33,986 nucleotides of DNA from Mesotaenium endlicherianum (Eukaryota), in the NCBI GenBank assembly GCA_009602735.1, contig WELA01002099.1, positions 337,351 to 371,336 of the forward strand. The letters are read 5' to 3'. The translations under genes and the position numbers were made by a program. The notes under the pieces were generated by a model. It saw only the letters and a list, made by a program, of their open reading frames with translations, was not told where the DNA came from and ran no database searches. This document shows positions 3,277-33,722 of this stretch, piece after piece (position 1 is the stretch's first letter; each line of letters starts with the position of its first letter).

Positions 3277-3997
3277 TGAAATGAATCGACTTACCAAATA
3301 AGCGATTAACAATTAATAAAGATCTTTATATCAGCAAGTAATCTTTATGGTATTTTCTGTTAGCTGTTTTAACGGCAAAGGACAACACACTAGCAGTGAA
3401 TAATACTCGTCAGTCAAATGAAAGTAAACTAGCATCAATAATGCAGATCAGTAAATTCATACATAAGCAAGGTTAGAAGACAGTGCGTATCAATGGCTTC
3501 CCGCCTTGGATTCAGATCTCTCTCAGTAAGCTGTACAGGAGAGTTGGCCTCGTTTCCGAATGCCGAACTCGAGAGCAATGCCTAGCATATGTACATGGAA
3601 TGAGTTTACTGTTCAACGGTCAGTGCGATGGCACCGCCTACCCGGGAGTTAACCACGTTGGTAGGACCTCGGTTAACCAAATCCACCGCCATCTCCCATC
3701 ATCCCGAATAGCCATCCATCATAGGGATGTCATCTGGCCATTCATCTAGCATATCGTGCTTAGGTGTATGTCAAGGCAGTTTCGCTGCTACCGAGTACGG
3801 AAGTCAGCTGGCTGTCAAAGAATGGGTCAGCAAGCTGACTTATATGGACTTCAGCCTGCTGCTTCCGGCTGAGTCATTAAATTGATAATTATGTAAAGTC
3901 CAGCAGACTGACTATTAACTAAAGTTTAGCGGGCTGAACTTAATTAACTATTATATCTAAATGAATATCATATCCACTAATATACTGATTCATTACA
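3277..3997 (-). mobile_element. Solo LTR of Ty3/Gypsy family A (721 bp)
   Basis: TG...CA termini with inverted ends (TGAAATGAATC / GATTCATTACA). Perfect 5-bp TSD GTACT at 3272-3276 and 3998-4002. Homologous to the LTRs at 6415-7133, 27141-27855 and 30945-31664; orientation taken from their PBS and PPT. Confidence 0.95.
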
Positions 3998-6414: not shown

Positions 6415-7133
6415 TGTATTGAACAGTATATTGCTAGATATAATATTCATTTAAGTATAATATTTAATTTAAATTTAGTCTGCTGAACTTTAGTTAATAT
6501 TAAGTCTGCTGGACTTTTAGTAATATTCAGTTTAATGCAACTCAGTCGTGGGCAGCAGGCTGAAGTCAACCTTGGTCAACCCGCCGACACATTCTCTAAC
6601 AGCCAACTGAGTGCCATATTTGGTAGCAGTAAACTACCTAGATATGCATCTCAGTGTGTTATGATAGATGTATGGCCACAGGACACCCTTGGGTAGATGG
6701 CGATTTGGGATGATGGGAGATAGCTGTGGATTTGGCCAGCCGAGGTCCTACCGACGTGGTCAACTCCCGGGTTGGAGGTGCCATCGCCCTTGCCGTTGAA
6801 CAGTAAACTCATTCCATGTACATAGATCAGGTCATGCTCTCGAGTTCGGCATTCAGAAACGATGCCAACTCTCTTGTACCGCTTACTGAGAGAAATCTGA
6901 ATTCAAGGCGAGAAGCCATTGATACGCACTGTCTTCTAGCCTTGCTTCTGTATGAGTTTATTGATTGCATGATTGATGCTCGCTTGCTTGCATTTGACGC
7001 GTGAGAATAGTAATACTACTTGTGGAGTCTTTTGCTGGTCACTAAGTAACCAAAAAGTACCATAAAGATTACTTGTTGATATAGAGTTTTTTTATTAATT
7101 CTTAATTGTCTATTGGTAAGTCAATTCATTTCA
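6415..7133 (+). repeat. 5' LTR of A1 (family A)
   Basis: TGTATTGAAC...TTCATTTCA; reverse-complement homologue of 3277-3997. Confidence 0.92.
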
Positions 7134-7146: not shown

Positions 7147-7779
7147 CTTATCACAGTTTTTGCTATATAGTAAGAACGCGTTTTCAAACTATTAACTCTC
7201 AAGATATGGAGAATCTGGATAATGAAATTAGAGAGATTCAGGGTGAAAACGATGATGTAGATATGCTGAGGTACTTGCAGCTAGAGAGACCAGAGGCTGA
7301 GGAAACGGCGGCGGCCCTCGTTGCAATAGGAACCCAGCAAATTGAAGAAGATCACATCAGAAGAGAGGCGGAACGGTTAGCTAAGGCAGAGCAGGAGGCA
7401 GACGCTGAAAAGCGGCGTCTATCTGACAACAGAATGGAGGAAAATATGATGGCAGAGAGGGCCAGTCTTTGAAACCAACCTCCTGCTGGAGCTACAACTG
7501 TACCTCGCACTCAGATAAATAGACAGTTAGGCGAGGCAGGAATGGCAAATGCAGCAGCAATAGGAAATGTTGAAATTGTTGCTGAGCCATTTAATACTGC
7601 TGTTGCCGCTATGGCCGGATTGCAACCTCAGAATGTTGATTTTGCATTCTTCGTTCGAATGCAATCTCAAATGACAATGATGTATCAGTCCCAACAGGAG
7701 GACAAGAGGATTATGACGGCATTGTTGCATGAGAAGGACCAACTGGGGTCTCACACTACTGGTGGTGGCAGGGGGCCTA

Positions 7780-11500: not shown

Positions 11501-12120
11501 TTCACGCTTGCTCCATCTGATGACCTCGCCAGGGCCACCGAAACAAGGTACATCTCCTTCACCTGATTCGCCCTGCATAGCTTCTTAACTTACAGGCTCG
11601 ACAGAAGACAGTTACTTGTGGTCGTATCTACCTCCACCTGTATCGCTGTCTCCATTCGACCATCACGCCCTTGGACTTTCACTTGTCCTGTGCTCCAGTG
11701 CACTTGAGGGTTGGCTTTTCTCAGCCATGGTCGGTCCAATATCACCTCATGGTGACCTACCTCTGCCTGCTCCATAACTTCCTTACTCCGATGCCCCGCT
11801 ACTTCCACATGAATAGCTTCCGTAGGTGCACCACACTTGAGTCTCTGCCCATTTGCCAAAATTGCCTCCTTAGGCTCATAATGCTTCTGCACAGGGACTC
11901 GCCACTCTTTCACCAGCTTCTTGTGCACAAAGTTTGCACTTGCGCCACTGTCGACCATACACTTCGCATTGTTGCCGTCGACCACTCCTTCCACGATGAT
12001 AGGCTTGTCAACGTCTCGTCCTTTGCTTCTCGGCAGGCTCCTGGGGATAACCTCCTTGTGAGTTCTTGTCTTCACGCCAGTAGACACCCCAGGACGACTT
12101 ACTGGCGTCCTCCTTTTTCC
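8512..12120 (-). pseudogene. pol: B pol polyprotein (PR, RT, RNase H, integrase, type I chromodomain); single frame with three in-frame stops
   Basis: [55 protein letters not shown] zinc finger; IAMDFI, SDRDPRF, HPQTDGQSER; GPF motif; EYEVEAI...YLVKWKGY..DNTWEP. Stops at 11590 (TAA), 10981 (TAG, apparently from a 6-bp deletion in GYHQ) and 10210 (TGA). Confidence 0.96.
8525..8540 (-). promoter_or_regulatory. Polypurine tract of B
   Basis: TTGAGGAGGGGGATGA abutting the 3' LTR; the pol frame runs through it (HLEEGDDVRS*). Confidence 0.9.
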
Positions 12121-13130
12121 TGTTGTTGAGGTTGCTTCGCCTTCACATGACAATCTCGAGCCATATATCCAAGCTTGCCACAATTATAGCAGGGTCCTCT
12201 CGGCTTGTAATTCTGTTGCCTGCGCTGGTTCTGAACAAGTCCCAACTCCATGGGTACTGGACCTTGAACACTTGTGCTTGGCGCTTGAGATCCAAAGTGT
12301 CGATATCCTCCAAAGTTGTGGCTGCCCCACTGCCTCTGACTATACTCCACAACGTCGATTTTTGTTGCCAATGCCATCATTTCTCCAAGACTGGTAGGGT
12401 CCTTGAGCGCCACTTCCTTGGCCACAGTTGGCTTGAGTCCCCTCTTGAACTTGTCCATCATCTCCGACTCGTGCATGGATGGACATTGAAGCACCAGCTC
12501 GTTGAAGCGCAATACATACTCTTGAACGCTTGCTCGTTGGCGAAGGCGCACCAATAGATCTCGAGCGGTAGCCTCGGACGCAATAGGTTGAAATTGCCTC
12601 TTCAAGCCTTCAAATAGCTGATCAACAGTAGCAGGAACTCCAGACAGCTGCTCCTGTCGCTCATACCAAGCTCCAGCACTCTTCTGCAGTAAAGTCATGA
12701 CAAAGGCGACTTGCCTGTTGGGCGTGAGCGCAGAATACTCCATAAACTTCTTCACTCCAAAAATCCATTGATGAACAGGCGGCGATCCACGCTCTCCAGT
12801 ATAAACTTCAGGCTTAGGCGCACGCACTCCTGATGCGGGTGGAATAACTGGTTGCACCACTGGGTTAACATGAATCGGTGGCACAACAGGTGCAGGTGCC
12901 AAACTCGTCGAAGCGGCGTTCCCCATAACAACTCGCACCATTCTCTCCACCTCCGCGTGCATATTTTGTTGAAACTGGGTGTAGACTTCTCCTCCAATTG
13001 CATTTGCCATTTGCCTTAGCATCGCCTGCATCTCTTGTTGCTCTTTGGTCATTGTTGGTGGTGCCTGCTGCCTCGCGCGCTCAACATGCTCGACATGTTC
13101 GCCTCCTCCAGCTGCCGGCTGCGACTCCAT
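12099..13130 (-). CDS. gag: B gag (343 aa, open frame)
   Basis: PKPEVYTG, LRQRASVQEYVLRF, KFKRGLK, PVPMELG, knuckle CYNCGKLGYMARDC (His replaced by Tyr). ATG ~20 nt after the PBS. Confidence 0.93.
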   Translation of the reverse strand: MESQPAAGGGEHVEHVERARQQAPPTMTKEQQEMQAMLRQMANAIGGEVYTQFQQNMHAEVERMVRVVMGNAASTSLAPAPVVPPIHVNPVVQPVIPPASGVRAPKPEVYTGERGSPPVHQWIFGVKKFMEYSALTPNRQVAFVMTLLQKSAGAWYERQEQLSGVPATVDQLFEGLKRQFQPIASEATARDLLVRLRQRASVQEYVLRFNELVLQCPSMHESEMMDKFKRGLKPTVAKEVALKDPTSLGEMMALATKIDVVEYSQRQWGSHNFGGYRHFGSQAPSTSVQGPVPMELGLVQNQRRQQNYKPRGPCYNCGKLGYMARDCHVKAKQPQQQEKGGRQ

Positions 13131-13150
13131 AATATAATATGCAAACTAGC

Positions 13151-13165
13151 CCAGCTTCGATACCA
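13151..13165 (-). promoter_or_regulatory. Primer-binding site of B (tRNA-iMet type, variant)
   Basis: TGGTATCGAAGCTGG, 2 nt after the 5' LTR end. Confidence 0.9.
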
Positions 13166-13167
13166 GA

Positions 13168-13911
13168 TGAAAGGGGCAGAGTGCCAGAGTGGAAGCGTAG
13201 TAACTCACGAGGAAAGGAACTAGTTGCAATCATACTAAAGAGTGCAGCGGCATATTGCTAAGAGAGCTTAGGAAAAATACTCAACATTTTGAGTAGCAAG
13301 AAACTGCTCACAATTGATGTAGAATGGAAGGCCTTGTCATTACAAACCCGTAGAAATTTACAGAAGTGAACACTGATAAGATACAAAGAAGTTATGCCTA
13401 TTTATAATTTTCTGCCTAAGTGCTCCGCTCTAGGAGGAAGCTACAGATTTTCTTAAGTGTTCGTCAAATTGTCCCTTCTTGAATATTCGTGAGTAAGCTA
13501 GATCAGTCTAATCTGACGTGTCGGGCCGAATTGACGTCCACATACATGCATCGACATTACTAGAATATTCTATCTTAGACGCGCTAGGCTAAACCAAAAC
13601 TTCTAGGTAAATCGACCTAGTCGGCACCCCGCGTCAGCCGAACTTACGTGAAGGTTCGAGTTCATTCTAACGGGCCAGATGGCTCGACGCTGTCGGTCAA
13701 TCCGACGGTCGCGCTCACCGCGAATTAAGGACAGTCGTCAACCGACCTCAAAACTAATCAAACTTCGGAAACCCATAACTCTCTCAATACTTGACCAAAT
13801 TTGATGAACTTTATATCAAAATGACCACAAAAATGCACTCTATACTACTATAATATCAAAACATACTTTCATGAAACTCAAAAATGCACTTTATAAACCT
13901 ATGACCTTACA
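13168..13911 (-). repeat. 5' LTR of B (744 bp)
   Basis: Direct repeat of 7780-8524; followed by the PBS. Confidence 0.96.
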
Positions 13912-14312: not shown

Positions 14313-15057
14313 TGTAAGGTCATAGATTTATAAAGTGCATTTTTGAGTTTCATGAAAGTATGTTTTGATTGTATAGTAGTGTAGAGTGCATTTTTGTGGT
14401 CATTTTGATATAAAGTTCATCGAATTTGGTCAAGTATCGAGAGAGTTATGGATTTCCGAAGTTTGATTAGTTTTGAGGTCGGCTGACGACTGTCCTTAAT
14501 TCGCGGTAAACGCGACCGTCGGATTGACCGACAGCGTCGAGCGATCTGGCCCGTTAGAATGAACTCGAACCTTCACGTAAGTTCGGCTGACGCGGAGTGC
14601 CGACTAGGTCGATTTACCTAGAAGTTTCGGTTTAGCCTAGCGCGTCTAAGATAGAATATTCTAGTAATGTCGATGCATGTATGTGGACGTCAATTCGGCC
14701 CGACACGTCAGATTAGACTGATCTAGCTTACTCACGAATATTCTGGAAGGGACGATTTGACGAACACTTAGGAAAATCTGTAGCTTCCTCCTAGAGAGGA
14801 GCACTTAGGCAGAAAATTATAAATAGGCATAACTTCTTTGTTTCTTATCAATTTTTCACTTCTGTAAATTTCTACGGGTTTGTGATGACAAGGCCTTTCA
14901 TCCTACATCATTTGTGAGCAGTTTCTTGCTACTCAAAATGTTGAGTATTTTTCCTAAGCTTTGTTAGTGATATGCCGCTGCACTCTCTAGTATGATGGCA
15001 ACTAGTTCCTTTCCTCGTGAGTCACTACGCTTCCACTAGGGCACTTTGCCCCTTTTA
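14313..15057 (+). mobile_element. Solo LTR of family B (745 bp), opposite orientation to the full-length B
   Basis: TGTAAGG...CCTTTTA (terminal CA mutated to TA). TSD GTGTA at 14308-14312 and 15058-15062. TATAAATA at ~14818. Confidence 0.95.
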
Positions 15058-17804: not shown

Positions 17805-18818
17805 GATAACAATCTGAGCTATTTTAGGCGTATTTGGGACGTTTTCTCAATCACCTCAAATATCTTACGTTGTTATCAATATATTATTTGGTATATGTTT
17901 GCATCTTGATGAAGTATTTGCCACACGGGTGTGCCAACTAATCCCTGGTCGATTAGCGAAACGACCAATATGCTATTGCAAAAAGCATCGTAAAGAGATT
18001 CGACCACTTTGCAATTATACGACATAATCATTCATGAAGCTACTTTGAGTGATTATGTGATGATAAGCTAATTAATTAAAAATTGATTAGTCTATGATTG
18101 ATTGTCATTATTTCGGATAATGCACAGTCACCGATTTTGGGTCAACGACTCGTCGTTGACCCGAACGAAGTCGTAAAACTCAAACGAAACGATTATGCAA
18201 ATTTACTTTGCATCCATGCGGATTTGAACCCGCAACCCTTCGTTTGAGACGATGACACCTAACTGATTGGCGAAGTAATTATTACAACTACTCGATCATG
18301 ACGAAAGCATGTGCGCACAACGAACGGTCACGTCTATTGAAAAACATCTAAGACATGGCCGCGATTAGTCACGTCTACTTAAAAAGAAGCTTAGATGTGA
18401 CTACCAACAATCACGTCTATTCAAAGGACGCGACTACGCCGATTCGGTGCAAAACGATTCGTTACGATTCGTCGCGATTCGTTGAAAGTCTCGAAACTGC
18501 CACACGGCATGATTTCGGGCATTTGGTCAATTGTGTCACTACCATTTGACCATTTTTGTTGACATGACCGGTGCCCTAGGTGGTGACTCGAAGCACTCAA
18601 GTGCCTCACGTTGAACAGGTGTAAATACCTGCGAGAGTCATTGTGAGTGCAACTCTCACAAGCACTAATTCTATACTTACGCTTTCTTTCTTTTCTCGCT
18701 CTCAGGCACTTAGCCAGGATTACGGGTTTGAGATATTTTCTTTTTGCTATTATCATATATTCCTTCAATACCGAGGAAACAAATCTCAAAAATTGGAACG
18801 TTATGAAGAAACGTTACA
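17805..18818 (+). mobile_element. LTR-like repeat C, copy 1 (~1.0 kb)
   Basis: Homologous to 26446-27140. Ends GTTACA, the inverse of the TGTAAC start of copy 2. Left end degenerate, no TSD. Orientation is tentative (TATA-like TGTAAATA at ~18620). Confidence 0.72.
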
Positions 18819-19359
18819 CTTCTAAGCAATTAACAATTAGTTTAAAGATCTTTATATCTGCAACTAATCTTTATGGTATTTACTGGTTAACTTACTAATC
18901 AGCAAAAACCACACAACTAGCGCAAGCAACGATCACCAAATGCAAAAAACGAGCATCAATCATGCAATAAGTGTACTCACACATAACAAGGTCAGTAAGC
19001 AATTCGTAAAATACTTGTAGCATTGGATTCAGATGTTCTCTCAGTATTTTGTACGGAGATTTGGCCTCGTTTTCAAGTATCGAACTCGATGGCATTACCC
19101 AGCTTATGTACATGGAATGAGTTTACTGTTCAACGGCAAGTGCCATGGCAGCACCTACCTGGGAGTTAAACACGTTGGTAGGACCTCGGCTAACCAAATC
19201 CATAGCCCATCTCCATCATCGCGCCATCCGCGTAAGGCGTGTCATGGCTGACGACCGCGGCTTAGGTTACACGTGAGTGTCAACACACACGTGAGCGCGT
19301 GGACGCTATTGAGTGTCCACATGTGTGAGTAGACTCTATTTATTTTATTTATATTTTCA
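18819..19359 (-). repeat. Divergent, shorter family-A-related LTR, missing ~20 bp at its left end
   Basis: Aligns to 3298-3700 (AAAGATCTTTATATC, GTACATGGAATGAGTTTACTGTTCAACGG), then diverges. Probable terminus TTTCA at 19359. Confidence 0.75.
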
Positions 19360-19389: not shown

Positions 19390-21636
19390 TGTGAAGATGT
19401 CGATTAGAAGCCAGCCGACAAGCGTGTGGAAAGATCGACGGGTTGTTGACTACTCGACAAAAGCTGTAGGACCTTTGTGGTCCACAAGAAAGTCAAGGAG
19501 TAGCCGGGCTAGTCCAGGCGGGTCGTGGGGATAGCAGGGGCTGCACATGGGCGCCACGCGTCAATGCGAGACGCATGGAAACCAAAGAAGGGGGAGATCA
19601 GTGTTACAGGGCGGAATTCCAACACATGCCGAGGACGACGCGGCGCAAAGTGGCGTGGCGGGGCCACAGCCACTTTGACTTTTGCTGGCGAATACCAATA
19701 TTTGACAAGGAAGGCCAGCACAATTCAAGAATGCGCCAGCAGCTTGTCAGGCGCAACTAACAAGCCTATTTGTCGAGTAAGCTTGCCGTGCGCCAAGGAG
19801 CGACGAGGTCGCTTGGCGCGAAGAAACGACGCGAGAGGGCTCGGTCAGTCGTGTGGCGCCATGCGAGCAAGGCAGCCATACGGCGAAGTACGAAGGGGTG
19901 GCAGGGTGGTGGCGAGGGGTGGCAGGGTGGTGGCTAGGGGTGGCATAGGGGCAAGCAGGCCCCTTGCGACCATTTTGACCAGTCGCTAGCAAGGGGTGGC
20001 AGGGTGGTGGCGAGGGGTGGCATGGGGGCAAGCGGGCTCCTTGCAACCATTTTGACTAGTCAAGCTAGTATACAAGGAAAAGGAGCCTTGGTGTCGCGAC
20101 TACTATCCGTTTGACGGTGCCGCACGCGCAGCGCAAGCTACGGCCACCCAGGTACGAAAAGTCAACGTGACTCACCGACCACTTGACTGATTTCTTCGCA
20201 GTCGGCGGTTATGTCAACATCAAGACCACTGGCATGGGGTCAATGTCAATGTGCCCCACACCCAGGAATGGGGGAGGTTTTGACAGGATAAACAGCCGCG
20301 AGACTAGAAGTTGGGGATCAGTGATGGGCCGCCCAGCAGGTACCAAGTCCGGTACTGTGTGACCGGCAGATTAAGCCAGGTCATGGCCGCAATGCCAAGA
20401 TAGATTACGGCCGCCCGAGTGGGAATCTTGAGAAAGTGGCATTTGCTTGTACACAACGTGCAGGAGTTGTTAGCCATGAGCCAATTAGGCGTGACTGCCA
20501 GCTGAGAAGCTAAGCAGCCACGCGCGACAGTCACGAGGTGTGCATGCATGCTGAGTGACTACGAGTTTGAGTTGAGCATGCCTAGGCAGAAGCGACATGC
20601 AGCTAAGCTTTGTGACTAAGCACGGCATTCTCGAAAGATGACGCTGTGTGGTGCATGCGAAAGGCACAAATCTTGCCTGAGACACTCACGCACTTTTGCC
20701 AAGAAGCAGAAGAAGCAGAAGGAAGAAGAAGAAGGGCGCAAAGAAGAAGAAGGAGTTCCCAAGGCCATTGGAGGGCCGAGGCCCCACGCTTCTGCCGACG
20801 TTGAAGATTCTTCTCAGTGTATCATACTTAAGTTAGGATTGTAGGAGTTCCCAAGAGGGAATCTCACTGTTGAAAGCAAGAGGACTGCAGAATAGAATTT
20901 GCTAGGAGATTAGCACAGATTTGGCCGAACGCCACAAGTGTGTGTGAAGCAGCCTTAAAATGGTAAGTTGTGTGTTAGTTTCCAGGTTCTCAAAAGTCGC
21001 ATTCGTATCTCGAAGAGAGAGAGTAGTGTTGATAGATAAAGCTCTCAGTGAAGAACTGAGTGAGCCTAGCCTGGTAGTGAAGAGCTGCTAAGGCGCGGTG
21101 TTAAGTGAAGAGCTTGAACCAGGCCAGCATAGACGTGTAGTTTCATAGTTTTGTAAGCTGTGACTTGCGAAAGTTAAGCGAAAGCCTGAAGGGCGATTTT
21201 CTCTGAACCTGACGTTGTATGTCAAGCTGCTTAGAGTGTGACTTCTGCAAACCACAATTTGCTCACCTGTGAACTCAAGAACCTTAAGGCATAAAGCCTA
21301 TGTGGAAGTAAGAGACTTCCGTCCTTGTAAGAGGAATTAAGGCAAGGCAGGTATTTTTAAGAATTTTTGCTAAAGTCTTAGGATAAGCAGACGGCGAGAG
21401 TTGGGTGAAGAAGAACGTTGCCCTAAGTACTGGCTATGGTTGCATGGTGCAAGTTCAGGAGCCCAGGGATGGGTTAGCCGAGGTAAGGCTTGTCACCGAC
21501 ACACGTGTGAAGATCAATCAACCAGTTCGAAGGCACACGTGCTGAAAGGCTACGCACGTGCGAGGGACCGACACTGTTAGGCACAACATTGGTTGTCTTG
21601 TTCTTGTTCTTGTTCTTGTTCTCGATCGTGGTGGAA
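19390..21636. other. Unassigned non-coding DNA, probably a large LTR or leader of a retroelement
   Basis: No credible ORF. G-rich tandem repeats, a GAA-rich tract at ~20700-20755 and (TTGTTC)n at ~21593-21622. No second copy, TSD or PBS found. Confidence 0.3.
19893..20068 (+). repeat. G-rich nested tandem repeat (21-bp unit inside a ~77-98-bp duplication)
   Basis: AGGGGTGGCAGGGTGGTGGCG-like unit occurs three times. The block ending CCTTGC.ACCATTTTGAC.AGTC occurs twice (starts 19893 and 19991). Confidence 0.85.
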
Positions 21637-23235
21637 CGTTTGTGAGGGGGCCGACAAGTTCCCCTCACGAACGCCCCCAAATGATAACGCCAAACTCCAA
21701 AAAGCGAGCGTCACCGTGACCACACGGACGCGAACGACAAACTTTCAGCAGCAGAAATGACGACCGCAAGGCGGCGACGACGACAGACCGCAACGTCCAC
21801 GACAGCGAACGACACGCCGGAACGGTCGACGGCGCCCGTCGGCGTTGAAACGAATCAACCTCCACAAAAACAAAGAGGCGCGGCCAAGCAAGAAGGGGCC
21901 CGCGCCATGGCCGACAACAAAAAAAAAGACGAGGAAGCTCGACACAACTCACCTCGGTCCTCGACCGTCCGCCCCCCGCTCCCCCCTTCCGCCAGCGGCC
22001 ATGGCCCGACAGTCGCCGCTGCACAAACACAAAAGCGAAAGAGTGTCAGTCAAATGACGACTTCGACAACACCAGATACACATGTATAGTGCGCCGGCGG
22101 TTGCGAAAGGGCGGGCCGCACTGGGGCCGCACCGGAAAAGCGTTCACGACGAATGCTTTCGCGTCGTAAAGCTCCGATGTCAAACGCATACAGGCCCTCG
22201 CGCACACGAGCGAGGGTCCCTTACTGATTCCCCCCTCACAAAATTTACGTGAGGGGCGCCTTACTCACCAACACAAGACAGGCCCCGTTCTGGATCCTAT
22301 TCCACGGATTCCGGCCACAAGCTACTCTCGAATATTTTCTATAGATGTGCAAGCTAGGCTTGTCTTGACCTAGTTGGATCAGTTTGTAACTTATTATATG
22401 TCTTTTGCTGCAACTTATTTTAGGTCATGTTTTGCTGCATACTACTACATAAGGGTATGTGTTAAATACTCTGATCATTTGTATATGATGTTAGAGGACA
22501 CGGGAAAGGGACAAAGAGGGCTGGAGTTCACAAAATCAGCACCTAAAATGTGAAATCGCTTTGCTTGGTGTGTGTTAAGCTAGGACGGTGAATAAGACAC
22601 TATAAGCTTGACTATGTGAGTACGCATGCTCATAATTACAAAATTGTGATGCTTCAATGCTAGAATATTGCATTAATACTTGCATTGTTAGCTTAAGGGA
22701 CAAGCGAGACATAGCAGATTTGAGCATTGTGTATGTGTGGTAAAATTTCGGAATTTAGCACGAGCAATTACCTATACAAAGGAGTGCTGAAGCTGTAGAA
22801 ATTTATCTTTTCAAGTCATTTCGATAACCTTCAAGTCATTACGTTGACCTTGTACGAGCCAATTTATCTAGAAAGCAAAAAGCCTATTTCTTTGTGGCAC
22901 ATTTCATAGTTTGTAAACAGGTTCCTCTCAGCCTTTGTGTGAAGCACGAGTGCTACTGTGCTCGCTGATCAGGTGAGTTGGATGGCCGTACATGAGATGA
23001 CTCACCCAAGGATCAAAGACTTGTGAGACGGTGACTTTTTGTGCCAAATGATATCAGTTGACTCTTACCAGTTTCAGTTTTATCACGCACATTCTGTAGC
23101 TCACACGCCTACTTTTAAAAATCTGATTTCAGCAGACATACGTATTGTGCTTATTAGGCTAGTCCTAACAAGATATACGTGTCTTGGTGATCAGGTTCCA
23201 GAGGCGAAGGTGATATACTTCAGGTTCAAAAGTAT

Positions 23236-26200
23236 ATGGTGGAGCTAAGAAGTGGCTTCAAGTACGCGGAAGATAGCTCTTTGGAAGACAAAGACGAGTG
23301 TAAAGTCCAAAGAGAATCCAACCAGGGATTTACGAGTCCGTTGGTGATTGCTCTAGAGGCAGGGGGACGGTATCGTCAGTACGCTGACGTTGATCTTGAG
23401 GGCAGCCCAAGAATGGTGCTGACCCATGAAGAGAAGGAGGAAAATGCCTCCTCCTATTGCTTTAGTGGAAGGCCTGGTACGGCGGAGTTGGAAGATATCA
23501 TTTCCGAGTGGGAGGCAGGTTATGCCAAGGAAAGCTTGAGGACGTTGGCGCTTGCAAAGCGAGTTGCATTCGAGTTTCTCAGGCGCCACTTGGCTCATGA
23601 GGCAAGGACTATGTACCGGGACCACAAGGCAGAGCTGCTCACGCGCACAGAGCTTGTGCCAGGTGATGCAGATGCACCAACAAAGTTGGTGGAATATTCA
23701 ATTACGCTCTTCTGGGGTACACTCAAGGAGAACTTCTCCGCGAGAGATGAGAAGGTGGTGGAGCTCACCAACTTCTAGTGCAAGGCTGGAGAGACCTTGC
23801 TGATGATGTATGAGAGAATTCAACGGCTGCTACCAGACACGGATGTCATGAGTGATCGCCAAGCAGCGCTGGTCTTCTTGTAGGCTCTTAGCCCGGAGCA
23901 TCAAAAGGCAATGAAGATTTCGCTCTTCCATGCTCATGGACAGCGGTTCTCCTTAAGGCAAGCATTTGAGGCAGCGAAGATGATGGACTCCGACGAGACG
24001 TAATTCAAGGTGACGAAGGAGGTGGGTTGCATGGACAACGATTCTCCTTAAAGCAAGCATTTGAGGTAGCGGAGACGATGGACTCCGGCGAGACATACTT
24101 CAAGGCAACGAAGGAGGTGCCAGTCCACCCTCCAAGGGCTGCGCCTACAGCTACGCCGATGGCAATGCGTATGCTAGGGCGTACCAGGAAGTTCTTCCCC
24201 AACCAGCGTCCTCGTGGAGGAGCGATGGCGGCTTCAGCCGTACTTGATGGTGCGTGTTGGAAGTTTGGGAGAAATTGTCATATGAAGAAGGAATGCCCTC
24301 AAGCAATGGGCAGCCATAGCAACATCCAATGCTAGAACTGCCATAAGATGGATCATGGGGCACTCAGAGGATGAGTGTTGGCCACAGCATTCTCGAGAGA
24401 ATCCTCACTTAAAGACCAATTGGGGCGCTGCTGGAGGACGTGAAGAGAAGGAGTATGAGAGGAAGGACAAAGGCAAGGGGCTTGGGTTGAGTAAAGGGCA
24501 AACCTCACTGGGTGACGCAATGGAGATGGCCCAGTTGCAATCTGCCCTAGCATCAAGCCGCGCACAAGCGGCGAAGCTGACTCGTAACACGGCAAGTTGC
24601 AGCTATGCGGAGGAAGATGCATGCGGAGCAATCTACGCATCTCCGGTTTCCATGGCGGGGCCAGCGTTGTTGTCGGGGCCAGATCATGGTCGACAACACA
24701 AGGAGATGACAAAGCTTCCGCGCTCATTTCAGATTATGGAAGAGGCGAAGGAGGACGAGCCTAAAGAGGTGGGGCTTGCTTTGCACGGGCTGAGCATGCA
24801 CGCGAGCACCGAGCTCTTGTCGGTGGCTCTCTATTGCAACCCTATCCTTACGCTCTTGGACATGGGCGTGAAGACGGAGCAAGTGTGCACGACGGTGACT
24901 ACCATGCTACTGAAGGAGAGTGGACACCCGGGGTCGGTAGCCCAAGTTGGAGGCGCGGCACGACCTATATCCAAGAGCGAAAGGAGGCCGGCCCCAATGC
25001 AGCGTTCCTGGACAATGCGCAAGGAATGGTGGTCATTCACAACTATGTGCCAAGCAAGTTCATGTTTGACACAGGTGCGCAGCCCTTACTCATAAGTGAG
25101 ACGGCATTAAAGAGATGGGCTTGAAGAGGGCAGATCTGGAACCCGCGCCTATGCGGATCAATACAACGGCGGGTACGATAGAATCTGTCTTGGGGCGCAC
25201 AAGGGCGCGGTGGTGACATTCGTCTTCAAGCCGGGGATTGCCGACACGACAACGATACAAAAGAAGTATCTTGTGACAAAGGCCGCGACGTTTCACGTAC
25301 TGCTTGGACAAGATGTGCTCAGTTCTATTGGGGCTGGAGTTGACAACTGGCTCAAGAAGGCGCACTATCGACCAGGTTGGTCTACGAGCGATAGACGCAA
25401 GAAGTACCTGCCCATAATGCTCATCAATGATGTGTATAAAGCATTGCAGTGCTGTGGGGTTGTGGTCTACTTGCATGGAGAGTCTTTGCGGCAAAATGCT
25501 CCTGTGGATGAGCAAGAAGGCAAAGGAGACTTGAAAGAAAGCGGCAAGGACTTGAGCCTGCCCATATCGGAGGGACGCTGAGAAGTGTTCATCAACTTCA
25601 CGGATTTCTTGACAAGTGAGATGGCGGGGCTGCGAGAGCGCGCCTAGGAAGCGGCACGGCTGGGACACGTTCCGGTCAACGAGGTGCTAGAGACTAGTGG
25701 CATTGTGGAGCTGCACATGCCAGAAGCAGAGCAAGTTCAGGCAGAAGAGCAGCTACAAGTCGAGGAGGGCAAAGCGCCGGAGCAAGCTGGTGTCGCACCT
25801 GTGGACGGGGGAAATGAGGAGTCAAAGGAGGCTCTTGACGTGCATGCTGCTGCTGTATACTATAAAGAAGAAGAACCTTCATTGGAGGTTGCTGATATGC
25901 TCGCTACAACTGAGCATTATAAAGAGCTAGAGGAGCCGGTGTTGGCTCCTGGTGCCACATTTAGGGAACCACTTTACGAGGGTGAAGAAGCGCCAGTATA
26001 TGGCGTGGACAAGCACGTTGAATGCGTGCCGATGGAAGAAGGAGAAGGAGACTTGCGCCTCAACGCGGAGCAGGTGGTGCAAATCAACACCACGCTTGCC
26101 GCCAAAAGGGAGACTATGGAGGAAGAGGATCGTGTGAAGGCAGCCCAAGGTGCGGCTGAAGAACATCGCCTGGAGCTTGAGAGGAGTGTGGTGGAATCTA

Positions 26201-26445
26201 AGGCGCAAGAAGATGGGCTACTAGCGCAAGCTAGAGCCATGGAGGAGACTCACTATGCGCTGGAGCAGCAAGTTGCTGAGCAAGAGTGCAAGAGTTGGAG
26301 CTTCTTGAGCAAGCAATTGCCCAATTGCCATAGAAAGAACTCGTGGTTTAAGAAGGGCGCAACTTGTGGATATTGCAGCGGTGCTTCAAACGGAGTACTT
26401 CCTTAGAGAGGAGTCGAAGTCGGAGGAGAAAGCCGACGCTGTGGA
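23236..26445 (+). pseudogene. Element D: decayed gag (two zinc knuckles), aspartic protease and long Glu-rich extension of a retroelement
   Basis: MVELRSG start; CWKFGRNCHMKKEC and C*NCHKM..HSEDEC knuckles; FMFDTGAQPLLIS at ~25060 and VLLGQDVL. Stops and frameshifts present. Cut by repeat C at 26446; no RT in the window. Confidence 0.75.
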
Positions 26446-27140
26446 TGTAACGATCCGAGCTTTTTACGCGTATTTACAATGTTTCTCTAATTACCTAAAG
26501 CATTTCACTTTCTATTTATAGTAGATTGCATGTTTGTCGAATTATTCTGGAACACACGTGTGCCGACTAATTCCCGGTCGATTGGCGAAACGACCAGAAT
26601 ACCATTGCAAAAACGTAAAGTAATTTGATTAGTTCCCAAAAGTATAACGTAATTGACAATAAAGTTACTTCGATTAACTATGGCGGAATAACTTAATTAA
26701 TCACGGGATGATTGAGTTATTTTAACTGTCACTATTTTGGATATTAACAGTCATTGTTTTCGGTTTACGACGCGTCGTGAACCCGACATCAAACACAAAG
26801 TTGTGGCCCAAGGGAGCCACCGGTCGAAATCGAACCTGCGACCTCCCGGTCGACGAGGCGCGCTTCCGCGACAGTCGTAAAATTTAAACGATACAATATG
26901 CAAACTTACTTCGCAATTTGGCAGGTTCGAACCCGCGACCTCTTGTTTAAATCGTTCACACCTCACCGACTTGGCCAAGTAGTTCTTATAACTACTGGTT
27001 TGTGGCCGATGAATTGTACGCAATCTTGCAAACAGTCGCGACTTTCAGAAAGTTGCGTGAACGCAAAAACAGCCGTTTTGGCGTAAAACGGTTTCTCGGA
27101 AACCGTCGAAAAGTCTCGAAGCGGCGAAACGGCGCGTTAC
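26446..27140 (+). mobile_element. LTR-like repeat C, copy 2 (5' part, interrupted by A2)
   Basis: Starts TGTAACGATCCGAGC; aligns to 17805-18510; contains tRNA-like A and B boxes on the minus strand. Confidence 0.75.
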
Positions 27141-27855
27141 TGAAATGAATCGACTTACTAAAAAGGCGATTAAGAATTAAGATCTTTATATCAGCAAGTA
27201 ATTCTTATGGTATTTTATGTTGATTGATATAACACTAAAAGACAACACACTAGCAGTGGACAATACTCTTAAATCAAATAGAAGTAAACTAGCATCAATA
27301 ATGCAATCAGTAATCTCACACATAAGCAAGGCTAGGAGACAGTGCATATCAATCGCTTCTCGCCTTAATTTTAGATCTCTCTCAGTAAGCTGTACAAGAG
27401 AGTTGGCCTCCTTTCCAAATGCCGAACTCGGGAGCAATACCTAGCATATGTACATGGAATGAGTTTACTGTTCAACTTCCAGTACGATGGCACCGCCTAC
27501 CCGGGAGTTAACCACGTTGGTAGGACCTCGGTTAACCAAATCCACCGCCATCTCCCATCATCCCGAATCGCCATCCATCCTAAGGATGTCATCTGGCCAT
27601 TTATCTAGCCTATCACACTTAGATGCATATCGGGGCAGTTCGCTGCTACCGAGTACGGAAGTCAGCTGGCTGTCAAAGAATGTGTCAGCAAGCTGTCCTA
27701 AGTTGACTTCAGCCGGCTGCCCCCGGCTGAGTCGTTTAATTGAGGATTTTATAAAATCCAGCAGACTCCATATTAACTAAAGTTCAGCAGGCTGAACTTA
27801 TATAACGATTATATTATAATGAATATTAAATCAATCAATATACTAATTCATTACA
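27141..27855 (-). repeat. 3' LTR of A2
   Basis: TG...CA termini, family A homology, adjacent PPT. Confidence 0.94.
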
Positions 27856-27940
27856 ATCCCTCCAACTTAACATGTTGTCGCCTGGAGAACACTAATACTA
27901 GTAACAGCGTGCTGTCCCTTCCATCCCCAGCCTACGGCCA

Positions 27941-29597
27941 TTAGGAGGGAGATGTCCTTGGGGCCCTATACTCAGGGGAGCCAGACCTCCTCCTTTCTTG
28001 ATGTCACCTGAAGCCTGGGGGATCCACGTAGGGGCCCCGCGGAGAACGCAGTAACTAGGCTGTTTCCTCTTGCACAGTTTGAAACTGAAGGGAGGCAGCC
28101 TTGTCCTGGGCAGCCTTCAAACGGACAGGTACATATACCGGCATCCCAGAAGGATGTTGCATGACATGAGCCAAGGGCACATGCCCTCTCTGCGAGGGAG
28201 ATGCTGGCAGGCCTCTGGCTATCTTCCTAGCAGCCCTCCTGTCTGCCCTGTCTGACTGGGACTCCGTGCCTGCAGATGGGCTTTGTCCTCTGGCAGTTCC
28301 CAGCCAAGTGATGTCCTCCTCTTTAGCGAGCTGTTGCAAAGCCATCCCAATCTTCCCCCTTATAGGGGATGTGGCGGGTGTCAGGATCACAGCGAGGCTA
28401 GTGTCCTCCTCCTCGCCTTCCTCTTCTCCTTCCTCTGACCCCTCCTCCTCTCCTTCCCCTGGTTCCTCTGAGACCGCTGGGGTCTCCTCTGTCAGCTGCT
28501 CTAGCTCTTCCCGAGAAAAAGAATACCCCACTGACCTTCCCTTTTTGGGTGCTGGTGGAGGCTGTTGAGTCCGGACCGCATATAGGTCCTTTTCTCCCTG
28601 CTTGCTTGCCCATTTGGCATAAGCATGCTTCTCTTTAGAGAATGACTCCCGGGCCCTGCTCCTGTCCTCCTGTAGTTCTTGGCTCATGCAGTCTCTTACT
28701 CCATCTAGTCTTGGTCCCAAGCTGCAATGTGAGGAGGCAACAGTATGGTCCCCTGTAGGTCTGTTAAGAAATTCTCATCCTTCGCCTTGTCATTCTGCTG
28801 GTCCCTCATGTTGATGGTCATCCACTGCCAATCGGTGGGCTTCTGGATAAAGGCAGGATTTGTCCTTTTCAGAGTGCACGGGTACCAGTGACCTGCGAAG
28901 TCCAGCTGACTGGTTTCCTGGCCAAGAACTCCCAGCTTCTCCTCTCCACCTCATTATACATGGCCTTGAATTATCTATGGGGTGTAGAGTCCTTAAAGCT
29001 GTCCGCGTCCATGGGGATCATCCTAATGACCCTATCCTTTCCCCAGATACCTGGGATTGATACAGCTCCTGTCTCATTCACTTGGGCCATTGCCTTGGCC
29101 TCTCTGACTGTATACCCTACCATCCTGGCATAATCGTGGTAGGGGAATAGCCTTGTGCTGACCTCGATATACTTGTCAAAGTGTTTGGATGTCTCCCCTT
29201 CCCTTTGCCGGATGTCCTGCTGTGCCTCACTGCGACTTCTCTGGGCATACTTGAAGGCCTCCTCCAGTAGATCAAAGCCCTTGCCCAGTATTGTGTAGCG
29301 ATAGCTACTGATTCTCCTCTGTTCTTCTTCTTCAGCCTGCTGCTTCCGCCTCTCCTCGGCTTGCCTCTCCTCTTCCGCCTTCTTGGCCTCCTCTGCAGCT
29401 TTTCTGTCCAGTTCTTCCTGCCTCAGCCTGGCTTGCTCCTCCTCCTCCTTCTTCTTTTGTGCCTCTTGCTGTTGTTGGATTCGTTGTGATTCCCGAGCGA
29501 AGATGGAGGATGATTCGATGTCGCCACGGAATTGCAAGTATTCTGCATGTGCCTCTTCCGCTCTTCTCTTCCTCTTAAGTTCCGACTTCTGGGTCAT
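27941..29597 (-). pseudogene. Extra 3' ORF (ORF-X) of A2, disrupted by stops and frameshifts; function unknown
   Basis: Colinear with 31784-33343. ORF-track pieces 28971-29606 and 28055-28720. Shares the terminal SPS*(TAA). Confidence 0.88.
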
Positions 29598-29820
29598 CCT
29601 GCTCAATCATAAACACAATGCAGTCAGTGAAGTCATGATACTCTGCCGCTACTGAGTGCCCGTGGTTAAGAAGAAAGTGATAGGGAGAGTTCCTAGTATG
29701 TAGTACCTTGTGTGAGTGTGTGAGTGAGTATAAGAGAGAGTTGAGTTAAAGTGAAAAAGTGAGTATGGGCGCAAGTTGAGTGTGTAGAAAACTTATAAAA
29801 TTTGACACACTCCCTCCAAC

Positions 29821-29906
29821 TTAATTTTAAAGGTGGGCTGCCTGTCACAATTGTCACTATCTGTTAATTTTAAAGGTGGGCTGCCTGTCACAATTGTCAC
29901 TATCTG
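29821..29906. repeat. Exact 43-bp tandem duplication
   Basis: ttaattttaaaggtgggctgcctgtcacaattgtcactatctg twice; single in A3. Confidence 0.93.
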
Positions 29907-30023
29907 TCACTAACTGTCACATTCCCCTCCGACTTATACGGAGACAGGACAACCTGTCACCTGTCCATGGCCACTGAAATGATAGTTAGGGAGGGGTGCC
30001 AGCCGCCCGAAGGTGGAACCGTT

Positions 30024-30944
30024 TCAACGCCCTTTGGCATTGGTCAGCTGGTCTTTAAATTCCCAAGTGTCCCCAGAGGAGTCGTAACCCTTCCATCTGA
30101 CCAGGTACTTCATGACATATTTAGATGATCGACGGACGGAGCGAGCTTCTAAAATCTCCTCCACCTCATACTCCTCAGGGTCACCAATCCGGACAGCGGG
30201 GACCGGTCCCGATTGGACAAGTAATCGACCGGTGAACTGTGTGTCACCTTTGATGTATGGTTCCAGGAAGGAGACATTAAAGACAGGCTGACCCTTATAT
30301 TCTGCTGACATATTCAGTTTGTAAGTATTATGACCGACCCGGCGCACCACCAAATATGGACCGACCCAAACAGGACCAAGCTTTTTCTTGACCACACCAG
30401 GCAGGTACAGGTGCTGAGAATGCAGTTTGACCAAATCGCCCTTAGAAAATATCAGTTCTCGACGATGCTGATTAGCGTATTTTTGTTGGTTTGCCTGGAC
30501 TTTGTGCTGGTTCTGTTGGACTTCTGACAAGGTATCAGCAAACTCTTGTGTTAATTGGAGGGAGACCGGAATGTCAATCCCGTCAGGGTGAGTTAAAGAC
30601 TTCCCCAGTACATCTAAAGGAGACTTAGGGACTCAACCCAAGCTCAGTTCAAAAGAAGTCTTGCCCGTTGACGCGTGCACCGCACTGTTGATCGCAAACT
30701 GGATTTGAGGTTTCAGGTCATCCCAATTATCTTGTTTTTGGTTAATATAGGCTCTTAGTACCTCTTGCAGAACTCGGTTTGTTCTTTCAGTCTGCCCATC
30801 AGTTTGAGGGTGGTTTGCTGTGCTGAGCAGCGGCTTGACTCCCATAAATTCCATTAAAGCTCTCCAGAACTTAGAGGTAAATTTTGAGTCTTCGTCTGAG
30901 ATGATATTAGAGGGTAGCCCATGTTGGCATACTACATGGTTGTA
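30024..30944 (-). pseudogene. pol: A2 integrase core, GPY motif and type I chromodomain
   Basis: HGLPSNIISDEDSKF, HPQTDGQTER, WVGPY, EEYEVEEIL...YLVRWKGYDSSGDTWE. In-frame TGA at 30633; 1-bp deletion near 30030 relative to A3. Confidence 0.94.
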
Positions 30945-31664
30945 TGAAATGAATCGACTTACCAAATAGGCGATTAATAATTAATGAAGATCTTTACATC
31001 AGCAAGTAATCTTTATGGATTTTCCGTTAACTGATTAAACGGCAAAAGGACAACACGCTAGCAGTGAACAACACTCGTAAGTCAAATGCGAGTAAACTAG
31101 CATCAATAATGCAATCAGTAAACTCATACATAAGCAAGGTTAGAAGACAGTGCGTATCAATGGCTTCTTGCCTTAATTTTAGATCTCTCTCAGTAAGCTC
31201 TACAAGAGAGTTGGCCTTGTTTCTAAATGCCGAACTCGAGAGCAATGCCTAGCATATGTACATGGAATGAGTTTACTGTTCAACGGCCAGTGCGATGGCA
31301 CCGCCTACCCGGGAGTTAACCACGTCGGTAGGACCTCGGTTAACCAAATCCACCGCCATCTCCCATCATCCCGAATCGCCATCCATCATAGGGATGTCAT
31401 CTGGCCATTCATCTAGCATACCACACTTGTATGCATATCGAGGCAGTTCGCTGCTACCGAGTACGGAAGTCAGCTGGCTGTCAAAGAATGTGTCAGCAAG
31501 CTGACTTAAGCTGACTTCAGCCTGCTGCTTCCGGCTGAGTCATTAAACTGATATTAAACATGAAGTCCAGCAGACTGATTATTAACTAGAGTTCAGCAGG
31601 CTGAACTTATTTAATTGTTATATTTAAATGAATATTATATCAACCAATATGCTCATTCATTACA
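30945..31664 (-). repeat. 3' LTR of A3 (720 bp)
   Basis: TG...CA termini, family A homology, adjacent PPT. Confidence 0.94.
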
Positions 31665-31783
31665 ATCCCTCCAACTTAACATGTTGTCGCCTCGACAACA
31701 CTGACACAGGGGACATGGATTTCCCCAACTGAAATTACCAACCCCTCTCCCATACAACGTGCTGTGCCCTAAGCCCTCTGCCC

Positions 31784-33343
31784 TTAAGAGGGAGATGCCC
31801 CTGGGGCCCTAAGGTCAGGAGAGTCAGACCTCCTCCTGTCTTGAGGTCTTCTGAAGCCTGTCAGAGAGGGAGGCTCTGCGTAGGGACCCTGCGGAGCATG
31901 CAGTAACTGTGCGATTTCCTCCTGCATGATTTGAAACTAAATGGAGGCAGCCTTCTCCTAATCAGCCCTCAAACTGACTGGTACATATACCGGCATCCCA
32001 AAAGGATGTTGCATGACATGAGCTAAGGGTACATGCCCTCTCTGCGAAGGAGATGCCGGCAGGCCTCTGGCTATTTCTCTAGCAGCCCTCCTGTCTGCCT
32101 TGTCTGACTGGGTCTCCGTGCCTGGAGATGGGCTCTGTCCTATGGCAGTTCCCAGCCAAGTGATATCCTCCTCTTCTTCCTCTGACCCCTCCTCCTCTCC
32201 GTCCCCGGGTTCCTCTGAGACTACTGGGGTCTCTTCTGTCAGCTGCTCCAGCTCCTCCCGAGAATAAGAATATCCCACTGACCTTCCCCTTTTGGGTGCT
32301 GGTGGGGGCTGCTGAGTGCGGACCGCATACAGGTCCTTTTCCCCCTGCTTGCTTGCCCATTTGGCATAAGCGTGCTTCCCTTTAGAGAATGACTCTCGGG
32401 CCCTGCTCCTGTCCCCCTGCATTTCTTGGCTCATGCAGTCTCTTACTCCATCCAATTTTGGGTCCCAAGCCGCAATGTGAGGGGGCAATACTATATTCCC
32501 CTTTAGGTCTGTTAGGAAATCCTCATCCGTCGCCTTGTCGTTCTGCTGGTCCCTCATGTTGATGGTCATCCACCGCCAATCGGTGGGCTTCTGGAAGAAG
32601 GCAGGGTCTGTCCTTTTCAGAGTACAAGGGTACCAGTGCCCTGCAAAGTCTAGCTGACTGGTTTTCCTGGCCAAGAATTCCCAGCTCCTTCTCTCCACCT
32701 CATTATACATGGCCTTGAACCTGTTATGGGGTGTAGAGTCTTTAAAGCTATCCGCGTCCATGGGGATCATCCTGATGACCCTATCTTTCCCCCAGATACC
32801 CGGAATCGATACAGCCCCTGCTTCATTCACCTGAGCCATTGCCTTGGCCTCTCTGACCGTATATCCTACCATCCTGGCGCAATCGTGGTAGAGGAGGAGC
32901 CTTGTGCTGACCTCTATATACTCGTCAAAGTTTTCGGATGTCTCCCCTTCATTCTGTAGGATGTCCTTCTGTGACTCGCTGCGACTTCTCTGAGCATACT
33001 TGAAGGCCTCCTCCAGTAGATCGAAGCCCTTGCCCAGCACTGTGTAGCGATAGCTGCTGATTCTCCTCTGCTCTTCTTCAGCCTTCTGCTTCCGCCTCTC
33101 CTCAGCTTGCCTCTCCTCCACTGCTTTCTTGGCCTCCTCTGCAGCTATTCTGTCTAGTTCTTCCTGCCTCAGTCTGGCCTGTACCTCCTCCTCCTTCTTC
33201 TTCTGTGCCTCCCGCTGTTGTTGGAGTCGTTGTGATTCCCAAGCGGAGATGGAGGATGATTTGATGTCGCCACGGAATTGCAAGTACTCTGCATGTGCCT
33301 CTTCCGCTCTTCTCTTCCTCTTAATTTCTGACTTTTGAGTCAT
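31784..33343 (-). CDS. Extra 3' ORF (ORF-X) of A3: 519 codons, open for 461, with two late TAG stops; coiled-coil/acidic protein of unknown function
   Basis: ATG at 33343 (the ORF-track start at 33352 is GTG). The frame continues past TAGs at 31958 and 31937, both CAG in A2, to the SPS*TAA shared with A2. Confidence 0.88.
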
Positions 33344-33722
33344 CCTGCTCACTCATCAACACAATGCAGTTAGTGAAGTCATGATATTTTGCCGCTCCTG
33401 AGTGCTCTTGATGTAGAGGACACGATAGGACGAGTTCCTAATTTGGAATACTTGGTGTGAGTGAATATCAGGGTAAATTGAGTTTAGACAGAAAGTGAGT
33501 GTAAGCGCGGCTAATCCCAAGACAAAACACCACTCCCTCCAACTTAATTCTAAAGGTGGGCTGCCTGTCACAACTGTCACTAACTGTCACATTCCCCTCC
33601 AACGTATATGGAGACAGGACCTCCTGTCACCTGTCCCTGGCTACGAAAATGACAGTGAGGGAGGTGCCCCAGCCGCCCGAAGGTGGAAACGTTTCAACGC
33701 CCCTTTGGCATTGGTCAGCTGA

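What the first reader, a model, noticed from the sequence alone, without database searches (positions are those of the whole stretch)
29597..29630. ORF-X looks expressed from a spliced, env-style subgenomic mRNA
Seen: both copies have a branch-point consensus (CTGAC 29623-29627; CTAAC 33369-33373) ~25 nt upstream of GCAG|G-ATG, so the acceptor lies 1 nt before the start codon. This spacing is conserved while the DNA ~100 bp upstream is poorly conserved. Family A LTRs carry a consensus donor GTAAGT within 18 nt of their 3' end (7116-7121 in A1; also in the solo, A2 and A3 LTRs). Inference: an LTR-initiated transcript could splice out PBS-gag-pol to give an ORF-X mRNA that cannot be reverse-transcribed. 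A local promoter with a short intron is the alternative.
Basis: partly seen in the sequence, partly recalled or inferred. Interest (0 to 1): 0.7.

Follow-up and report, generated by a model that had tools for sequence, protein, structure and literature searches.

The report
Orphan accessory gene in a chromovirus
A family of jumping genes here carries an extra, conserved gene with no relative found and no membrane-spanning stretch, preceded by a splice-acceptor-like signal that likely lets it be made from its own shorter RNA, although no spliced RNA was seen.

Summary
In both copies a CTRAC branch motif lies 25 nt before CAG|G-ATG, and GTAAGT lies 18 nt from the end of 4 of 4 full LTRs. ORF-X (461 aa) is a real gene (dN/dS 0.14) between the chromodomain-integrase and the 3' LTR of a Ty3/gypsy element. 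It is not env-like: no signal or transmembrane stretch, a KRKRR motif and a long predicted helix. The acceptor is modestly above chance: 22 of 1233 ATGs pass a loose test, and the 60 nt upstream are 90% identical against 73% at synonymous sites. The LTR donor is not above chance (about one such site per LTR is expected). Five raw RNA runs gave no junction: 33 reads lie 8 nt inside the putative intron against 32 on the exon side. These reads come from other copies, are probably antisense, and ORF-X is nearly silent, so the test is weak. New here: an internal copy of the polypurine tract, a GTGACA repeat array and a local GT donor (107-108-nt intron). The layout parallels Athila/Calypso and Sireviruses. 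Long splice about 0.4 (U5 donor about 0.25); internal promoter about 0.35.

The parts
31958..33343 (-). ORF-X, copy A3, intact, 461 aa: KRKRR at 8-12, long charged helix to about residue 97, central domain without a known fold, acidic tract 361-400
   Evidence: no Pfam family (11); dN/dS 0.14 against A2 (26)
28112..29597 (-). ORF-X, copy A2, broken (two 1-nt indels, one stop, one 105-nt in-frame insertion relative to A3)
29599..29627 (-). putative branch point CTGAC (29627-29623) and acceptor CAG (29601-29599), copy A2
33345..33373 (-). putative branch point CTAAC (33373-33369) and acceptor CAG (33347-33345), copy A3
29610..29636 (-). two upstream ATGs (29636 in frame, stops after 9 codons; 29610 other frame, 11 codons); same places in A3 (33382, 33356); removed by any splice to the acceptor
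29705..29706 (-). candidate local donor AAG|GTACTA (intron would be 108 nt)
33450..33451 (-). candidate local donor CAA|GTATTC at the aligned place (intron would be 107 nt)
29707..29808 (-). G-poor C/T-rich tract (G 6%), poorly conserved; A3 equivalent 33452-33530 (G 14%); leader/promoter-like by composition only
29811..29824 (-). internal copy of the polypurine tract, 14 nt identical to the 3' PPT; A3 equivalent 33534-33547
   Evidence: only four occurrences in the window, two per copy
29843..29960 (-). array of GTGACA repeats (7 in 141 nt); A3 equivalent 33566-33630 (4 in 91 nt); background 0.26 per kb per strand; absent from the family A LTRs
30024..30944 (-). end of pol of copy A2: integrase core part, SH3-like region, chromodomain
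   Evidence: SH3_Tf2-1 E 8e-14, Chromo E 6e-9
33641..33718 (-). end of pol (chromodomain tail) of copy A3; the element is cut off upstream at about 33720
   Evidence: reads continue into chromodomain sequence there
31666..31679 (-). 3' polypurine tract of A3 (A2: 27857-27870)
30945..31664 (-). 3' LTR of A3; GTAAGT at 30962-30957; likely RNA 3' end near 31230
27141..27855 (-). 3' LTR of A2; GTAAGT at 27158-27153
6415..7133 (+). 5' LTR of sister copy A1 (about 80% identical), GTAAGT 7116-7121, followed by a degenerate tRNA-Met-type PBS and gag
3277..3997 (-). solo family A LTR with 5-bp target duplication GTACT; GTAAGT at 3294-3289

Best explanation
ORF-X is a conserved, non-envelope extra gene between the chromodomain-integrase and the 3' LTR of a Ty3/gypsy retrotransposon, and it is likely translated from a subgenomic mRNA made by splicing from a donor upstream of gag-pol onto the CAG one base before its ATG. 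Shown: position, coding constraint, no signal or transmembrane stretch, the branch/acceptor motif and its conservation, and two upstream ATGs that such a splice would remove. Inferred: that the acceptor is used. Also inferred: that the donor is far upstream, because an intron whose loss is harmless would be expected to vanish when the spliced genome is copied, whereas both copies keep this one. The U5 GTAAGT is the best-scoring donor in the LTR and would also remove the PBS, but it is only one candidate (about 0.25 overall). The product is predicted to be a soluble, probably nuclear regulator (KRKRR, long helix, acidic tract), in the manner of the spliced CERV of Cer1; its function is untested.
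For: dN/dS 0.143 over 458 codons (sd 80/S 292, nd 51/N 1082; Fisher P 8e-26; differences by codon position 25/24/82). Highest 19-residue hydropathy 0.82, no N-x-S/T site, no hydrophobic N-terminus. Branch + CAG|G-ATG is found at 2 of 1233 ATGs, loose rule 22 of 1233. The 60 nt upstream are 54/60 identical, and in the 29-nt block round the branch the only difference is the R of CTRAC. Two upstream ATGs at the same places in both copies. GTAAGT invariant in 4 of 4 full LTRs and the only site scoring 7/9 in the A1 and A3 LTRs. Precedent: spliced env-position mRNAs of Bagy2 and Athila (PMC7264820, PMC7197481); an extra PPT in the pol-env linker of Athila4/Calypso (PMC2829016), as here.
Against: No joint onto the acceptor (X1, X2 contigs; X4, X10 reads; the stretch held an LTR upstream of ORF-X) or (X10, X12, X7, X5). 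At 33352, 8 nt inside the putative intron, 33 reads are laid against 32 at 33323 on the exon side, and a contig runs unspliced over the acceptor (X1 record 6). The U5 donor is at chance frequency, and 8/9 donors exist in A1 gag/pol (15791, 16312). The LTR holds 21 ATGs on the sense strand, and RNA seems to end at 31230, upstream of the donor. The acceptor has a weak pyrimidine tract and GAG dinucleotides between branch and CAG. Only two copies could be compared at DNA level. Limits of the negative result: 6-24% of each run was read; 5 of 9 raw runs were laid; reads are mostly 80-95% identical (other copies, organism label not shown to be the window's); 13 of 17 reads at 33352 in the three stranded runs have the first mate on minus, probably antisense RNA; loose-end tables were cut (19 and 15 rows hidden); a joint needs 3 reads.
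Confidence: 0.4

Rival explanations
1. Internal promoter: the GTGACA array and C/T-rich tract drive a short ORF-X transcript, either unspliced or with a 107-108-nt leader intron from the local GT donor, as foamy viruses do for tas/bet and as proposed for Sirevirus ENV.
For: A GTGACA array at 9-10-nt spacing (7 and 4 copies against 0.26 per kb), then a G-poor C/T tract, then a GT at the aligned position in both copies. Reads of a third copy keep that GT with CAG before it (table 3). In X12 the few first-mate-plus (likely sense) reads cover 33115-33390 but not 33391-33528. Repeated motifs upstream of ENV in Sireviruses (PMC2829016); foamy virus internal promoter (PMC12789967).
Against: The local donors score only 5-6 of 9. 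33 reads at 33452 run through the local donor with no joint. A short intron whose removal is harmless should be lost on retrotransposition (inference). No start site was mapped; the X12 signal is about 4 reads. Likeness of the tract to another C/T-rich region of the window was not significant (59 and 82 of 300 shuffles).
Confidence: 0.35
2. No splicing at this site: the conserved 60 nt are a translation or RNA-structure element (reinitiation after the short uORF, or internal entry on genomic RNA), and the branch/acceptor look is chance.
For: All RNA seen over the site is unspliced. 2-3% of ATGs pass the loose motif test by chance. An 8-9-codon uORF ends 9 nt before the ATG in both copies.
Against: Does not explain the exact branch consensus with variation only at R. 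ORF-X lies about 300 nt after the pol stop, behind several ATGs; stop read-through as in SIRE1 is excluded by in-frame stops just upstream.
Confidence: 0.17
3. The acceptor serves a Gag-only RNA: a donor at the gag/protease border joins it out of frame (a 7-codon tail, then stop), raising the Gag:Pol ratio, with ORF-X downstream.
For: Two 8/9 donors in A1 (15791, 16312), read by eye as phase 0 in the protease region and just after it; the frame beginning at the exon G stops after 7 codons in both copies. Spliced GAG RNAs are known in Ty1/copia elements (PMC7197481 passages).
Against: A1 is a degenerate sister copy (LTR about 80% identical) without its 3' end; 13 of 3779 GT sites score 8/9 by chance; does not explain why the AG sits one base before a conserved start codon; no reads.
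Confidence: 0.08

Closest known systems
Athila/Calypso and Bagy2 (plant Ty3/gypsy, OTA clade) with env-position ORF
   Same: [quoted passage not shown]
   Different: Those are non-chromoviruses and some of their ORFs have transmembrane stretches; this element has a chromodomain, ORF-X has none and no sequence likeness was found; splicing here is not shown.
Cer1 CERV (C. elegans Ty3/gypsy)
   Same: ORF in the env position that does not resemble Env, lineage-restricted, KRKK-type NLS, helical/coiled-coil parts, made from a spliced mRNA (PMC10309623 passages).
   Different: CERV is a 5-exon product sharing exons with gag and has a shown role in gRNA export; ORF-X appears to start at its own ATG; no homology and no function shown.
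Sirevirus (Ty1/copia) ENV-like ORF with multiple PPTs and repeated motifs
   Same: Repeated short motifs upstream of the extra ORF, extra PPT copies, internal-promoter hypothesis (PMC2829016).
   Different: Different superfamily; Sirevirus extra PPTs lie mostly after the ORF and the motifs are shared with the LTR, whereas here the extra PPT is before ORF-X and GTGACA is absent from the LTRs.
Chromoviruses (REXdb: Tekay, Reina, Galadriel, CRM, Chlamyvir, Tcn1)
   Same: Ty3/gypsy integrase with C-terminal chromodomain, tRNA-Met-type PBS, 5-bp TSD.
   Different: In REXdb Additional file 5 only Tekay lists 3' sense extra ORFs (18%); the clades with an aromatic-cage chromodomain (Chlamyvir, Tcn1, Galadriel) list none. 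Clade not placed here by a tree.

Membership tests
Chromovirus (Ty3/gypsy) | integrase followed by a chromodomain | tested here: met
   Pfam SH3_Tf2-1 and Chromo in 30027-30632, weak rve in 30636-30980; aromatic residues at the cage positions judged by eye (positions recalled)
Chromovirus (Ty3/gypsy) | LTRs with TG...CA ends, PBS, PPT, short TSD | tested here: met
   a tRNA-Met-type PBS follows the LTR in contigs of X1 and X2
Chromovirus (Ty3/gypsy) | placement in a named clade by RT/INT phylogeny | not tested
   no intact family A RT in the window; the best hit of the A2 integrase end is 39% identical
Env / env-like ORF | [quoted passage not shown] | tested here: met
Env / env-like ORF | signal peptide and transmembrane segment(s), glycosylation sites | tested here: not met
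   max 19-residue hydropathy 0.82, max 7-residue hydropathy in the first 40 residues 0.31, no N-x-S/T
Env / env-like ORF | expression from a spliced subgenomic mRNA | tested here: inconclusive
   no junction, but ORF-X is nearly silent and the reads are likely antisense, from other copies
Env / env-like ORF | homology or fold likeness to a fusogen | tested here: inconclusive
   no hit in Pfam, homologue searches, atlas (14, 45) or PDB sequences; models too poor for a fold search (pLDDT 45.9 and 32.7)
Rev-like / CERV-like export factor | basic nuclear-localisation or RNA-binding motif and oligomerising helix | tested here: inconclusive
   KRKRR 8-12 and PKRGR near 350; helix with pLDDT 70-96 over most of residues 1-90; such motifs are common
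Rev-like / CERV-like export factor | needed for export of unspliced genomic RNA | not testable with these tools
   needs localisation and RNA-binding experiments

The most novel reading that the evidence does not exclude
A chromodomain-bearing retrotransposon has independently evolved complex-retrovirus gene control. A donor inside U5 splices out PBS-gag-pol to make a non-replicating mRNA for an orphan nuclear protein, which acts like Rev/CERV or Tas on the element's own RNA or on the GTGACA array, while a second polypurine tract bounds the cassette.
Probability: 0.12. Interest if true: 0.72.

Novelty: new variant of a known kind. Interest (0 to 1): 0.4.

Why it matters
Extra ORFs in the env position of plant-type LTR elements are common, but how they are expressed and what they do is mostly unknown (PMC7264820). 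This one sits in a chromodomain-bearing lineage where the REXdb table lists none outside Tekay, is under clear purifying selection, has no detectable relative, and cannot be a membrane fusogen. The spacer offers exact, PCR-testable predictions for three expression routes. If the splice is real, it shows that the Athila/retrovirus layout (extra PPT, acceptor, third ORF) arose again with an unrelated, soluble protein.

Tried and rejected
No whole genome is held for this window, so conservation could not be counted over more copies. Homologue searches for ORF-X found nothing real: 0 of 7993 candidates, lengths 253-807 only; 2 hits, both repetitive proteins with 29-34-bit local matches, rejected; atlas; metagenome contigs (41, 0 of 422 confirmed); PDB sequences (74, best E 0.24); phage records. 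These blanks do not prove novelty. Two AlphaFold2 jobs (44, 79) were too poor for a fold search, which was not run. The run search listed no indexed holder on record as RNA (no RNA holder listed; no evidence either way); 7 of its 13 runs were laid. An apparent likeness between the acceptor region and a U5 motif was not significant (70 and 99 of 300 shuffles) and was dropped. The 14 differences shown within ORF-X were 6 synonymous and 8 non-synonymous, a selected subset that is weaker than the A2/A3 result and not used as support. The bacterial promoter scan (65) does not apply. The host was not identified (family B integrase hits at most 47% identical); a non-seed plant or alga is my guess only. 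The Bagy2 paper was not held. Literature searches (listings, plus the passages named in the full report) showed no description of a spliced 3' ORF in an aromatic-cage chromovirus; the library lacks most subscription papers, and REXdb Additional files 1 and 3 were too large to read.

Full report
Setting. The window is a nest of eukaryotic LTR retrotransposons. Family A has LTRs of about 720 bp: a solo copy (3277-3997, 5-bp target duplication), the 5' LTR of A1 (6415-7133, +), and the 3' LTRs of A2 (27141-27855) and A3 (30945-31664), both minus. On the minus strand A2 and A3 each read: chromodomain end of pol, a spacer of about 300-400 nt, ORF-X, PPT, LTR. A3's LTR abuts the integrase of A2, and A3 is cut off at about 33720; RNA reads there continue into chromodomain sequence like A2's, so the layout is that of the family. 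No genome is held and the host was not identified.

Observation. Every coordinate holds. The branch A lies 25 nt before the end of CAG, followed by G and ATG, in both copies. Of 1233 ATGs in the window, 2 meet the strict pattern (these two) and 22 a loose one. The 60 nt upstream are 54/60 identical against 72.6% at synonymous sites (P about 9e-4, post hoc), and the next 130 columns 77/120. In the 29-nt block round the branch, the only difference is the degenerate R. The LTR donor is invariant in 4 of 4 LTRs but unremarkable: 1.35 sites per kb per strand score as well, family B's LTR has three, and 137 of 726 six-column windows are invariant. It also lies next to the 10-bp terminal inverted repeat, where conservation is expected for other reasons (the last point is inference).

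ORF-X is a real gene but not an envelope. Between A3 (intact, 461 aa) and A2 (broken), dS is 0.34 and dN 0.049 over 458 codons, with a ratio of 0.11-0.13 over the first 380 codons and 0.29 in the tail. It has no hydrophobic segment, no N-glycosylation motif and three cysteines. It has KRKRR at 8-12, a long helix predicted with good confidence over most of the first 90 residues, and an acidic tract. No relative was found.

(a) A 14-nt exact copy of the 3' PPT core lies about 190-215 nt upstream of the ATG in both copies; it occurs only four times in the window. (b) A GTGACA array precedes it (7 and 4 copies) and is absent from the LTRs. (c) A G-poor C/T tract follows, ending in a GT at the aligned place, which would give an intron of 108 nt (A2) or 107 nt (A3). 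(d) Two upstream ATGs sit at the same places in both copies and would be removed by any splice to the acceptor. (e) Donors scoring 8/9 exist in A1's gag/pol.

RNA test. One search listed 13 runs; 7 were laid. One search (27860-31700, where an LTR lies upstream of ORF-X as in a full element; X1, X2, X4, X10) listed two joints, both from one contig, in the variable spacer, and none at the acceptor; one contig crosses the acceptor unspliced, but may be DNA. One search (31666-33720; X10, X12, X7, X5) listed no joints. Reads laid at 33352 (intron side) number 7, 9, 16 and 1, and at 33323 (exon side) 8, 3, 18 and 3. The local donor is crossed likewise. Among the 40 differences shown of 180, none falls in the branch motif or CAG|G-ATG, which suggests a third copy keeps them. 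The test is weak. Only 6-24% of each run was read, and most reads are 80-95% identical, so they come from other copies under an organism label not tied to the window. In the three stranded runs, 13 of 17 reads at 33352 have the first mate on minus, which for the usual protocol means antisense RNA. A loose end at 33281 in X7 points to a rearranged copy as a source. First-mate-plus depth over most of ORF-X is 0-3, apart from a cluster of identical molecules in X5. Loose-end tables hid 19 and 15 rows. On the same strand reading, LTR RNA ends at 31230, upstream of the U5 donor, so a U5-spliced RNA would have to read through that site, as genomic RNA must.

Mechanism. I put the chance that the acceptor is used at about 0.6. 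A donor far upstream is favoured over the local one by an inference: a short intron that can be removed without harm should be lost when spliced genomes are copied, while a splice that removes PBS or gag-pol yields an RNA that cannot be copied, so the signals persist. That gives about 0.4 for a long splice (about 0.25 for U5 specifically), 0.35 for an internal promoter with or without the short intron, 0.17 for no splicing and 0.08 for a Gag-only RNA. A donor inside the LTR would differ from the usual retroviral env splice, whose donor lies after the PBS (recalled). It could instead serve U1-mediated suppression of the 5' poly(A) site, described for HIV-1 and foamy viruses (PMC12789967 passages), although here it is present in both LTRs.

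Comparison and sources seen. PMC7264820: abstract and main text. PMC6317226: passages, section 9 and Additional file 5 (39, 43, 57; files 1 and 3 unreadable and may list relevant elements); 3' sense extra ORFs are listed only for Tekay among chromoviruses. PMC2829016: passages and sections 17 and 20 (67-69), for the extra PPT in Athila4/Calypso and the repeated motifs and internal-promoter idea in Sireviruses. Passages only: PMC7197481, PMC10309623, PMC12789967, PMC11728184, PMC12786077. The element works like Athila/Bagy2 in layout and perhaps like Cer1 in product, but fails the transmembrane test for an env-like ORF.

Verdict. Observation confirmed; interpretation partly supported and unproven. 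It is a new variant of a known kind: an orphan, selected, soluble accessory gene in a chromovirus, with a plausible acceptor and an unsettled donor. Interest 0.4.

Noticed in passing
window 29811-29824 and 33534-33547 (-): Internal 14-nt copy of the 3' PPT core upstream of ORF-X in both copies, with a second, looser purine tract about 50-100 nt further up; could be a second plus-strand priming site or the trace of the cassette's insertion.
   Followed up: partly
window 1723-3120 and 4087-4186: Array of about 200-bp repeats containing an inverted GTCAC/GTGAC motif, with TTTAGGG-like repeats near 2499-2530; the solo family A LTR is inserted into it.
   Followed up: no
window 7779-13911 (-) and 14313-15055 (+): A full family B chromovirus (a few stops, no 3' ORF) and a solo B LTR are both inserted in the gag of A1.
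   Followed up: partly
window 27130-27141 and 18800-18823: The 3' ends of the A2 LTR and of a partial A-like LTR (18823-19223) both abut the CGTTAC end of another repeat (17807-18164 resembles 26448-26786, 69%); possible target preference or shared history.
   Followed up: no
window 29924-30955 and 31214-31664: Stranded RNA runs show opposite strands over the integrase and over the U3/R part of the LTR, with 5 molecules ending or starting at 31230; many U5 reads (43 in X4, 25 in X10) continue into non-element sequence with one dominant flank.
   Followed up: partly
window 19500-26400 (+): A degenerate GC-richer element with gag- and protease-like stretches by eye; four of its ORFs gave no Pfam match.
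   Followed up: partly
window 5484-6400 (-): Remnant that looks like a Ty1/copia reverse transcriptase by eye, interrupted by A1; not tested with a profile search.
   Followed up: no
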